A DNA stretch of 64,000 bases, from contig OX597840.1 in NCBI GenBank assembly GCA_951406725.2, forward strand, positions 37,634,001 through 37,698,000, given 5' to 3'. The translations under genes were made by a program, and so were the position numbers. Each line of letters opens with the position of its first letter. Position 1 is the first letter of the stretch. The notes under the pieces are model-generated. The model had not been told where the DNA came from and did no database searches. It saw only the letters and a list, made by a program, of their open reading frames with translations. This DNA comes from Octopus vulgaris (Eukaryota). Below are positions 40,985 to 62,597 of the stretch, piece after piece.

Positions 40985-42042
40985 CTTGTGTGCGTGTTCA
41001 CGAAAGTGTATTTGATTGTGTGTGTATGTGTGTGTGCGTACATATGTATGTGTAGATGCAGGTGTGCATGTGTGCCGGTACAATTATTCATTGAATTATA
41101 GCACTGAACAACACAATATCCATTCTTGTCGTTAAAGAAAATATCAATTAAATTCTGCCAAAGTTTCTCCCAATGCTTCGTTTTATTTCAACAGAACCTG
41201 TTAAATAAGGAAAAAACGATTTTTAAGCACACTAATGCTGAATTTACAGCAACGGTTCTCAAAGAAAATCGAAAAGCACAGATGTTCCTCCAAAAGCCAG
41301 GTGGAAGATAGAGAATGGTGGTATAAAATTCTCCTGCAGAGGTACTTTTTCTGTTTCAAATATTTGAAGACTGCTTCACGAGGGAGATGAGTATTCTAAA
41401 TATCTGATTAATATTGAAATCCAATTCGATGATGCATCAGTTTTGAACAATTTGATAAGTTATTCATAGATAATTTTTATAAGAAATCATGGTATCTTGT
41501 ACACTGTCAGCACACTTACAAAACCAAAGGAAAAGCTGAAAGGAGGATTTCTGCTTAGTCCAAGATTCCTTTAATCGTCCTCCATAGTTTTGTACTTCAC
41601 ATAGTACATATACAAACAATAGCATGGAAAGATTGTTCATCAGGATATTAGTAACTAAGAAATTTACGAAAAAGTCGCTTTTGTTTCGATTAAACAATGC
41701 ATATCTTTATACATAGACATTTATATAGCTATTTACTAACACTCATAGACACTTTACCCGTATAATATTTCCAATTTTTAATAGGATATCAAGAAACATA
41801 CTACGAAACGTCTATTGTGCGTAAAAAGTTCTTGTAACTTGTCTACAATTTATGATATATATATATATATATCAAGTACAAAAGTAACTGTATCCAAAAG
41901 CAGAAAATATGTATGTAGAGTACATGTAATATATATATATATATATATAAAATATTATTAGAGACAAAACCACTATTTTGCAAAACAAACAAGGACAGAC
42001 TTAATCAATACATAAAATTTTAATAAATAGTCAAAAAAACCG

Positions 42043-42085
42043 CCACTACAATTGTTTCTTGTCTTGATCGACAATCTTCAGGTGG
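42043..42085 (-). ncRNA. Type I minimal hammerhead ribozyme (canonical core)
   Basis: Minus strand: ccac CTGAAGA ttgtc gatcaa gacaa GAAA caattg TA gtgg. Stem I 4 bp, stem II 5 bp, palindromic stem III, GUA cleavage triplet. Confidence 0.85.
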
Positions 42086-42131
42086 ACTTCCAATAAGTCA
42101 GTTTCAAATTTGAAACTGACTTATTGGAAGT

Positions 42132-42174
42132 CCACCTGAAGATTGTCGATCAAGACAAGAAACAATTCTAGTGG
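42132..42174 (+). ncRNA. Type I minimal hammerhead ribozyme (mirror copy, stem III G->C)
   Basis: ccac CTGAAGA ttgtc gatcaa gacaa GAAA caattc TA gtgg. Confidence 0.75.
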
Positions 42175-42349
42175 CGGTTTTTTTTGACTTTTTATTAAAA
42201 TTTTATGTATTGATTAAGTCTTTCCTTGTTTGTTTTGCAAAATAGTGGTTTTGTCTCTAATAATATTTTATAATATTTTACTATAAAATTGGATTTAATC
42301 CTAAATCTGATTTTTTCCCTGTAAATTTGGATTTATTCCCTAATATTTA

Positions 42350-42393
<44 letters not shown>

Positions 42394-59734: not shown

Positions 59735-59935
59735 TCTGTAATATAATATGTGACAATTATTTGTTTGCCATAATAAAACTCCGAGTTTCAGATGTTGGAG
59801 CTGAAACCTGCTCCGTCATCTCGTCAGTTATCAAGGCCAAAAAATAGTCTTGGTAACTGACGAGATGCCGGAGCATCCAAAACTCGGAGTTTTATTGTCG
59901 CAACCGAATAATTGTCGCATATTATATTACAGATA
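59735..59935. mobile_element. HHR-cassette family 6 fold-back with a hammerhead-like motif in each arm
   Basis: Arms ~59735-59835 / ~59848-59935. Minus: ataa CTGACGA gatg..catct GAAA ctcggag TT ttat. Plus: gtaa CTGACGA gatgc cgga gcatc cAAAA ctcggag TT ttat. Confidence 0.8.
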
Positions 59936-61049: not shown

Positions 61050-61126
<77 letters not shown>

Positions 61127-61477
61127 GTAAGGCCAAAACAAGGCGAAATAAATGCAAGGTAAATCGAAAGAAAACAAATAATTAAATTAATGTAGACCTA
61201 CCTTATATTCAATATTTCGTTTATTATGATTTACTTTGCATTTACTTTGCATCATTTTGGCCTCAACAAAGATCCTTTATACAATATATATATATATATA
61301 TAATAAATATTAGGGAATAAATCCAAATTTACAGGGAAAAATCAGATTTAAGATTAAATCCAATTTTATAGTAAAATATTATATAATATTAATTAGAGAC
61401 AAAACCACTATTTTGCAAAACAAACAAGGAAAGACTTAATCAATACATAAAATTTTAATAAAAAGTAAAAAAAACCG

Positions 61478-61520
61478 CCACTACAATTGTTTCTTGTCCT
61501 GATCGACAATCTTCAGGTGG
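61478..61520 (-). ncRNA. Type I minimal hammerhead ribozyme (family 2, cassette 61300-61548)
   Basis: Minus strand: ccac CTGAAGA ttgtc gatcag gacaa GAAA caattg TA gtgg. Confidence 0.85.
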
Positions 61521-61549
61521 ACTTCCAATTTACAAGTCAGTTTCAATTT

Positions 61550-61602
61550 GAGCTTCCTGAAGATTTCTCTTGAATGAAACAGTTCTAGTCCTGTAGAAGC
61601 TC
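61550..61602 (+). ncRNA. Type I hammerhead ribozyme (family 7)
   Basis: gagcttc CTGAAGA t ttc tctt gaa t GAAA cag ttctagtc ctg TA gaagctc: 7-bp stem I, 3-bp stem III, GUA triplet; U-U at the base of stem II. Confidence 0.75.
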
Positions 61603-62597
61603 CTTCTATATAATAAATAAATAAATATATATATATATATATGTGTGTGTATTGTGTTGTATTTGTGGTGCAGTGGTAGAATGCTTTTTTCAATTCCCAG
61701 CCGATGCACAGTAGTAAAATCATGAAACCGGTGCCCCAGCATGGCCGCAGTCAAATGACTGATACAAGCAAAATGTAAAAGCCAACATACACATGCATGC
61801 ACATTTATGCATGCATGTCTGTATGTGCATATGTGTATGTGTATATACGTATACACATACACATATACACATATTTGTATATGTGTATATACACATATTT
61901 GTATACACATATGTGTATATGTGTATGTATACATGTATGTATTTATAAGTAAAAACCTTGGAATCACGAGCCTTCATACGTAACACAATGAAAATATTTA
62001 AAATTGCAATTATATGCTGATAAATATTATTATAATTATTAGAGTTTTCCTCGGTAAGCATATAATCTGCAAAGTCTTTTGTAAAATTAACGTATTTTGA
62101 CAACATAACAAACCAAATGAAAACCTAATTAAGCACTTGTAATAGTACAGTTTATCTGTAGAAGCAGTGGAAGAAGAAAGCAGTTGAAATGAATAATAGT
62201 AATAAAAAAGAAAAATAAATAGATTTTAACATAAAATCTGCTGAGTGGAAAGCTGTCAGAAATAAACAACTTAGATTTTAAAATGTATAATAGAAGAATA
62301 TAATAGAAGAATTAAATGGAAATTAAGTAAAGCAATAATGAAAAGAAAAAAACGATAAACACACACACACACATATATATGTATATATACACGCAGTCAG
62401 GCATATATTAGCTGGAATGCATGTTGATGCAATCCAAGAGTGAAGTATAATGAACACACAGAACAAAAAAAAAAAAACGTACACAAAGACGCAATCAAAA
62501 ACATTACATGCGCATTCAACTATACAGATATAAATACGTACTTACTGAGATAGAAAGATAGATAGGGAGATAGGGTATATATATATATATACAATAA

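What the first reader, a model, noticed from the sequence alone, without database searches (positions are those of the whole stretch)
61300..61612. Two unrelated hammerhead cassettes fused head-to-head
Family 2 (minus, HHR 61478-61520) ends at ...aagtcagtttcaattt, essentially the point where the 42108 palindrome folds back. Here the partner arm is instead a different element, family 7 (plus, HHR 61550-61602). The geometry matches the homologous fold-backs, with 5' ends joined and 3' ends in TA. Inference: both ends of a break in (TA)n are primed independently on RNA templates and joined at their 5' ends, so one RT can use different cassettes at a single site.
Basis: partly seen in the sequence, partly recalled or inferred. 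Interest (0 to 1): 0.72.

Follow-up and report, generated by a model that had tools for sequence, protein, structure and literature searches.

The report
Rare two-family Penelope head-to-head insertion
The front ends of two different Penelope-type jumping genes are joined head to head in a TA repeat, a rare hybrid among about a thousand same-family joins, which likely records one insertion in which the two cut DNA ends were each copied from a different RNA.

Summary
In detail: a family-2 arm (minus, type I hammerhead 61478-61520) abuts a family-7 arm (plus, 61550-61602), both ending in (TA)n. The exact junction is unique in G000; one more F2/F7 hybrid exists (C1, L073), against an estimated 1,060 same-family joins (about 384 hybrids expected if partners were random). 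The 'cassettes' are not free ribozyme elements: each is the first 70-250 nt of the mRNA of its own protein-coding Hydra-clade Penelope-like element (RTs 39% identical). The F2 arm is spliced and the F7 arm starts at a predicted capped start. Same-family joins pair one tailed with one tail-less arm (93 of 97) and share variants and splice form, so normally one RNA is likely copied from both cut ends. The hybrids keep that geometry, so the best reading is two-ended priming with a second RNA (0.6). Deletion between neighbouring palindromes (0.2) or cross-joined simultaneous insertions (0.12) are not excluded; no empty site could be tested. 'One RT uses both cassettes' is untested. This scan already noted two-ended Penelope priming in other DNA; the cross-family count is what is added.

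The parts
61284..61301 (.). left (TA)n target tract
61302..61385 (-). family-2 tail: about 85 nt present only on the long (tailed) arm; its outer end is the distal reverse-transcription start (inferred)
   Evidence: 53 of 56 palindromes have it on one arm only; in the parent the ORF starts about 55 nt further on
61386..61477 (-). family-2 body between ribozyme and tail
   Evidence: 99.2% identical over 243 nt to L331 and L332
61478..61520 (-). family-2 type I hammerhead with a 6-nt palindromic stem III; predicted cut between 61482 and 61481, uncut here
61521..61546 (-). spliced leader of family 2; exon junction between 61530 and 61529 (downstream of two donors 4 nt apart); stops about 9 nt short of the RNA start
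   Evidence: parent copies carry a 0.9-1.9 kb intron here
61545..61551 (.). head-to-head joint; 7 letters also read as F2 sense leader, of which only 2 are not shared with either arm
61550..61602 (+). family-7 type I hammerhead; begins at the family's fixed start with an extra G where the parent has T (cap copy, inferred)
61603..61617 (+). end of the short (tail-less) family-7 arm, the proximal start site (inferred)
   Evidence: same end in 40 of 41 F7 palindromes; arm 100% identical to other copies over 66 nt
61618..61642 (.). two extra 4-nt repeats and the right (TA)n tract
41950..42354 (.). comparator: same-family F2 palindrome, short arm 41950-42108 (minus) and long arm 42109-42354 (plus)

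Best explanation
This is a short hybrid insertion of two Hydra-clade Penelope-like elements, likely made in one event in which both cut ends of a (TA)n tract were extended by reverse transcription, one on a spliced family-2 mRNA from the tailed start site and the other on a family-7 mRNA from the tail-less start site, and the two copies were then likely joined by end repair. Shown: both arms are 5' pieces of protein-coding PLE transcripts; the tailed plus tail-less rule; arms normally match; hybrids are about 0.2% of joins. Inferred: a double cut by the GIY-YIG endonuclease, priming from both ends, one RNA molecule in the normal case, a second RNA here, joining by short homology. Whether one RT or two ribonucleoproteins acted is open.
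For: Parents: F7 continues into an RT plus GIY-YIG ORF in two frames (L250), F2 into intact 839-840 aa ORFs (L322, L324). The F2 arm lacks the parent's intron; the F7 arm carries the extra first G. Tailed plus tail-less pairing: F2 53 of 56, F7 40 of 41, and all kb-scale inverted pairs read (8 F7, 6 F2). Either arm can reach the RNA start (19 versus 11 of 30) or extend further at the centre (26, 15, 13 ties of 54). Both F2/F7 hybrids and a third hybrid (F7 with another family, L201) are tailed plus tail-less with young arms: 99.2% and 100% here, 96.7% and 100% in L201, 94.8% and 98.4% in L073. The L201 joint shows repeated re-priming like same-family centres. One F2 palindrome has arms with two different leader types (L200), so a second RNA is used at times. 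In vitro a PLE protein cuts and extends both strands from two internal sites and is predicted to be a dimer (PMC11167929).
Against: Only 2 F2/F7 cases. Intact F2 and F7 neighbours exist (6 tail-to-tail pairs), so deletion between neighbours has substrates, and the control was inconclusive (a third family has 5 such neighbours with F7 and 0 hybrids). L073, L177 and L201 keep 18-39 nt of a second same-family arm at the centre, which needs an extra template jump under this model but comes free under deletion. L177 joins two tailed arms, breaking the rule. No read or contig confirms the junction, and no empty site was seen.
Confidence: 0.6

Rival explanations
1. An F2 palindrome landed beside an F7 element in the same TA cluster, and a deletion during or after insertion removed the inner arms and joined the two centres.
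For: 6 F2-F7 neighbours within 150-400 nt, two of them intact palindrome pairs (L203, L204). Remnants of a second same-family arm at the centre of L073, L177, L201. L177 (two tailed arms, partner cut before its ribozyme) looks like such a deletion.
Against: Both hybrids begin exactly at the F7 start although allowed about 19 nt of truncation. Only 1 of 6 neighbours has the inner-arm layout that would give the observed product; 4 would give the opposite product, which was not found. Loss of an arm end into the flank was seen in 2 of the 30 loci (L177, L196). No hybrid with the larger third family.
Confidence: 0.2
2. Two simultaneous two-ended insertions at different TA tracts, one F2 and one F7, were cross-joined, so the hybrid bridges a deletion, inversion or translocation.
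For: Described for L1 in tumours, where two synchronous insertions recombine their cDNAs (bioRxiv 10.1101/2024.08.27.596794, passages). It predicts tailed plus tail-less hybrids with young arms, as seen.
Against: No reciprocal product (tailed F7 plus tail-less F2) among the 2 matches. It needs two rare events together in one germ cell.
Confidence: 0.12
3. Sequential insertion of a one-armed F7 at the 5' end of a one-armed F2, or an assembly error.
For: One-armed copies of both families exist. No read support was obtained.
Against: One-armed copies keep a TA tract at their 5' end, and no F2/F7 head-to-head pair with a TA spacer was found within the reach. Two loci on different contigs have different junctions and the same polarity.
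Confidence: 0.08

Closest known systems
Endonuclease-positive Penelope-like insertion with an inverted 5'-truncated copy and one-sided tail (PMC8557442; PMC3846280)
   Same: Head-to-head arms, tail on one arm only, hammerhead in the pLTR, AT-rich target.
   Different: The two arms come from different families; tails are about 70-85 nt rather than 30-40; the arms are spliced sense-RNA copies, against the antisense self-priming proposed in PMC3846280.
Hydra clade of C-terminal EN+ PLEs (PMC8557442, section 11)
   Same: Both parents show DKT, CxCX5C linker, late CxxC and CxH, C-terminal GIY-YIG, hammerhead, (TA)n targeting.
   Different: Units are about 5-6 kb (tandem spacing 5.2-5.4 kb for F7, 6.0 kb for F2) against 'generally <3 kb'; F2 has an Asn-rich insert; no tree was built.
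Anole Poseidon element PAc in vitro (PMC11167929)
   Same: Two internal start sites bounding the tail; both strands cut and extended; uncleaved hammerhead RNA is the template.
   Different: Mixed RNAs were not reported in the parts read; here the ORF starts after the tail, not in the ribozyme.
L1 twin priming and synchronous-insertion bridges (bioRxiv 10.1101/2024.08.27.596794)
   Same: Two DNA ends primed, cDNA ends joined by short homology; chimeras from two RNAs occur.
   Different: L1 twin priming copies non-overlapping parts of the RNA; here both arms copy the same part. L1 chimeras bridge rearrangements; whether this one does is untested.
Non-LTR retrozymes (bioRxiv 10.64898/2026.07.22.740005)
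   Same: Short, non-coding, type I hammerhead, PLE-related.
   Different: Defined by tandem units; these are inverted stubs that begin upstream of the ribozyme and trace to coding parents.

Membership tests
EN+ Penelope-like element | pLTR followed by one ORF with RT and C-terminal GIY-YIG endonuclease | tested here: met
   F2: 839 aa (L322), F7: two frames (L250); motifs read. Pfam gave no significant hit for either, so this rests on motifs and on the paper's description.
EN+ Penelope-like element | hammerhead motif in the pLTR | tested here: met
   not listed by Rfam in 150 of 315 rows
EN+ Penelope-like element | inverted 5' copy with tail on one arm | tested here: met
   93 of 97 stubs; 14 of 14 long inverted pairs
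EN+ Penelope-like element | target-site duplication | tested here: inconclusive
   hidden in (TA)n; none visible at either hybrid
Hydra clade | DKT, CxCX5C linker, late CxxC and CxH, no CCHH in the GIY-YIG core, (TA)n target | tested here: met
   read by eye in the ORFs against PMC8557442 section 11; the RWK motif reads KWK in F2 and RWR in F7
Hydra clade | placement in the RT phylogeny | not tested
   no reference Hydra sequences were fetched
Non-LTR retrozyme | tandem units each with a hammerhead | tested here: not met
   copies are inverted pairs or single arms; only short partial tandems at L004 and L005 among 30 loci; no genome-wide tandem count
Active hammerhead ribozyme | self-cleavage | not testable with these tools
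   arms cross the cut site intact; PLE hammerheads cleave poorly in vitro (PMC4209133, passages)
Fixed composite F2+F7 element | many copies with one junction | tested here: not met
   1 exact match; 2 loci with different junctions

The most novel reading that the evidence does not exclude
The Penelope integration complex has two copying sites that normally read one RNA molecule but can load a second RNA, even from a family whose RT is only 39% identical, at a single break. Such hybrids would be fossil proof against self-priming and a route for exchanging ends between Penelope families.
Probability: 0.35. Interest if true: 0.7.

Novelty: new variant of a known kind. Interest (0 to 1): 0.48.

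Why it matters
How Penelope-like elements make their inverted ends is stated to be open (PMC8557442) and was proposed to be self-priming on an antisense RNA (PMC3846280). A join of two families cannot come from self-priming of one RNA, and spliced, cap-marked arms point to the sense RNA. The data give a ranked, testable picture: one RNA molecule nearly always, another family member in about 1 of 61 scorable joins, another family in about 2 of 1,060. That can be tested directly in the existing in vitro system with two marked RNAs. If the deletion rival holds, the locus is an ordinary rearranged pile-up of insertions in a TA tract.

Tried and rejected
Rfam: no hammerhead in the 150 rows shown of 315; the rows shown are almost all low-complexity miRNA matches. 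The repeat finder was swamped by microsatellites. No PLE ORF among 72 ORFs of 120 aa or more in the window. Folding energies of both ribozymes are no better than shuffles. Pfam: no significant family for either parent ORF; 18 homologues, one named. Sequencing runs: no RNA holder listed; 5 of 23 runs were laid as contigs and none bridged the joint, which shows nothing about presence or absence. Neighbour-pool control (6 F2-F7 against 5 third-family-F7 neighbours; 2 against 0 hybrids) does not separate the models. Fixed composite element rejected. Random choice of templates rejected (about 384 hybrids expected, 2 seen). Simple fold-back of the tailed cDNA disfavoured; later deletions at the centre could blur, and 3 rows there were mis-scored (L059, L063, L109). 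One apparent mixed-subfamily call (L065) was a labelling error, and one of the two leader discordances (L171) is a single substitution. My first guess that the partner in L201 was an old copy was wrong. A genome-wide count of exon-1 variants of the F2 parents was not obtained, so the share of the two splice forms rests on the stubs sampled. Tandem versus inverted orientation of same-family pairs was not counted genome-wide.

Full report
Observation. The window is G000:C27:37634001-37698000 of a 2.8-Gb assembly; the only named homologue of a parent protein is from an octopus, so a cephalopod host is likely. A descriptor scan found three full type I hammerheads, at 42043-42085 (minus), 61478-61520 (minus, F2) and 61550-61602 (plus, F7); 20 shuffles gave one weaker hit in all. 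The F2 arm is the reverse complement of the long arm of the 42108 palindrome and stops 2-3 nt before that centre; F7 follows at once; both outer ends run into (TA)n.

How common. The exact F2/F7 junction pattern matched once in the genome, control 0. F2 followed head-to-head by any hammerhead core within 60 nt gave 467 matches; the 100 rows listed are 54 loci by my hand count, all F2 with F2. F7 with F7 gave 1,298 matches, 62 loci per 100 rows listed. That scales to about 252 and 805 joins; these are estimates and lower bounds (exact motifs, short gaps). Searches aimed at non-self partners gave 5 matches for F2 (1 hybrid, this one) and 75 for F7 (2 hybrids); a looser F7-F2 pattern gave the same 2. 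The second is L073 on C1, with a different junction. Random pairing would give about 384. Other hammerhead families fold back the same way (3,934 matches, control 49); a large third family gave 3 matches in a non-self search, all mutated self pairs.

What the cassettes are. Longer copies exist for both families (1,101 and 300 matches, many as kb-scale inverted pairs). [quoted passage not shown] F2 continues into intact ORFs of 839 and 840 aa (L322, L324). The proteins are 39% identical over the RT and 35% over the endonuclease. Both carry the motifs that PMC8557442 lists for the Hydra clade (section 11 read); Pfam did not recognise them and no tree was built. The F2 stub leader is spliced: parents hold its first exon 0.9-1.9 kb upstream between a GT donor and an AG acceptor. 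Full-length F2 stubs start with G where the parent has C (58 matches to a pattern that demanded the G; parents), and F7 stubs mostly start with G where the parent has T, about 30 nt after a TATA-like box (64 of 73 non-parent occurrences, in redundant loci partly selected with a query bearing the G). So the stubs are copies of the 5' ends of sense mRNAs of two separate autonomous families.

The normal insertion. One arm has the tail and the other lacks it: F2 53 of 56, F7 40 of 41 scorable (16 of 57 loci had no pair), long inverted pairs 8 of 8 and 6 of 6. Arms of one locus are more alike than arms of different loci (0.46 versus 1.62 substitutions in 39 loci, 0.53 versus 2.81 in 15; 0 of 10,000 permutations). 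Discordance at diagnostic sites was 1-2 of 70-76 where 30-45 were expected; the F7 stem III variant was concordant in 41 of 41. Parents with two donors 4 nt apart explain two leader types; the rare type (5 of the 108 arms, against a large majority of the common one) paired with itself in 5 palindromes (L059, L105, L329, L331, L342), with the common type in 0, and with a third type in 1 (L200). This points to one RNA molecule for both arms; conversion between arms after insertion is the alternative. Yet neither arm is a copy of the other: the arm that reaches the RNA start is the tailed one in 19 and the tail-less one in 11 of 30 loci. Two cDNAs from two start sites fit the in vitro behaviour of the anole element (both strands cut and extended, two internal starts, predicted dimer; PMC11167929, parts 1-2 of 4 read) and do not fit self-priming on an antisense template (PMC3846280, passages).

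The hybrid. Here the tailed arm is F2 and the tail-less arm is F7; L073 has the same polarity. Both arms here are young (99.2% and 100% to their best relatives). A third hybrid, L201, joins a tailed F7 arm to a tail-less arm of another family that is 100% identical to a copy in L240, with repeated re-priming at the joint. I read these as two-ended insertions in which the second end used another RNA. Against this, L073, L177 and L201 keep 18-39 nt of a second same-family arm at the centre, so the foreign cDNA must have jumped onto the first RNA or a deletion occurred; L177 joins two tailed arms and looks like a deletion. Six F2-F7 neighbours exist, only one in the layout that would yield the observed product. 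The control with a third family (5 neighbours, 0 hybrids) is too small to decide. Contigs of 5 runs did not bridge the joint; this is uninformative. The own genome has no relatives here, so the empty site could not be read.

Two-ended priming is supported; independence of templates is the rare exception; 'one RT, two cassettes' is untested because each family has its own RT and two complexes could share one TA tract.

Novelty. The inverted, one-tailed layout is known (PMC8557442, passages and section 11; PMC3846280, passages). I found no report of cross-family head-to-head PLE hybrids in six literature searches (listings only, apart from the papers named); the library lacks most subscription papers and I read no supplements, where such cases could be listed. 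Also read: PMC4209133 (passages), bioRxiv 10.64898/2026.07.22.740005 (part 1 of 5), bioRxiv 10.1101/2024.08.27.596794 (passages). This scan had already noted two-ended priming in several genomes and mixed-subfamily arms in two (unchecked notes). Added here: the cross-family count, the splice-form test and both coding parents. Verdict: real, rare, a new variant of a known kind; interest 0.48.

Noticed in passing
window 61124-61285: Another repeat between TA tracts with an internal inverted repeat and no hammerhead core; covered deeply by contigs of public runs but with no match among my loci.
   Followed up: partly
L200 (G000 C13:8324841): F2 palindrome whose two arms carry different leader types; the one clear within-family mixed case among 61 scorable.
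   Followed up: yes
L201 (G000 C1:134043270-134043900): Tailed long-form F7 arm joined head to head to a tail-less arm of a third hammerhead family, with 39 nt of F7 sense between.
   Followed up: partly
L177 (G000 C3:41758836): Tailed arm of another repeat family joined through 20 nt of F2 antisense leader to a tailed F2 arm; probably a deletion between neighbours.
   Followed up: partly
L164:1405-1640: Older three-piece join: one hammerhead family, a short remnant of its second arm, then a different family.
   Followed up: no
L322:1209-3725, L324:3737-6256: Intact Hydra-type ORFs with an Asn-rich stretch between RT and endonuclease, like the N-rich inserts described in rotifer Penelopes (PMC3846280); candidates for in vitro work.
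   Followed up: partly
L321-L327, L291-L320: F2 long copies keep a 0.9-1.9 kb intron in the pLTR, some with a duplicated first exon, while the short stubs are spliced.
   Followed up: partly
L246-L255, L321-L327: Inverted pairs 6-9 kb across obey the same tailed plus tail-less rule.
   Followed up: partly
L020 and L149: F7 and the large third family share weak similarity across the tail (9 of 500 shuffles reach the score), yet no hybrid between them was found.
   Followed up: partly
L246:4252-6948, L251:8291-9808: ORFs of other Penelope-type families (different linker motif) lie inside or beside F7 long copies.
   Followed up: no
window about 59800-59860, minus: A further hammerhead-like motif of another family, picked up only by the looser scan.
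   Followed up: no
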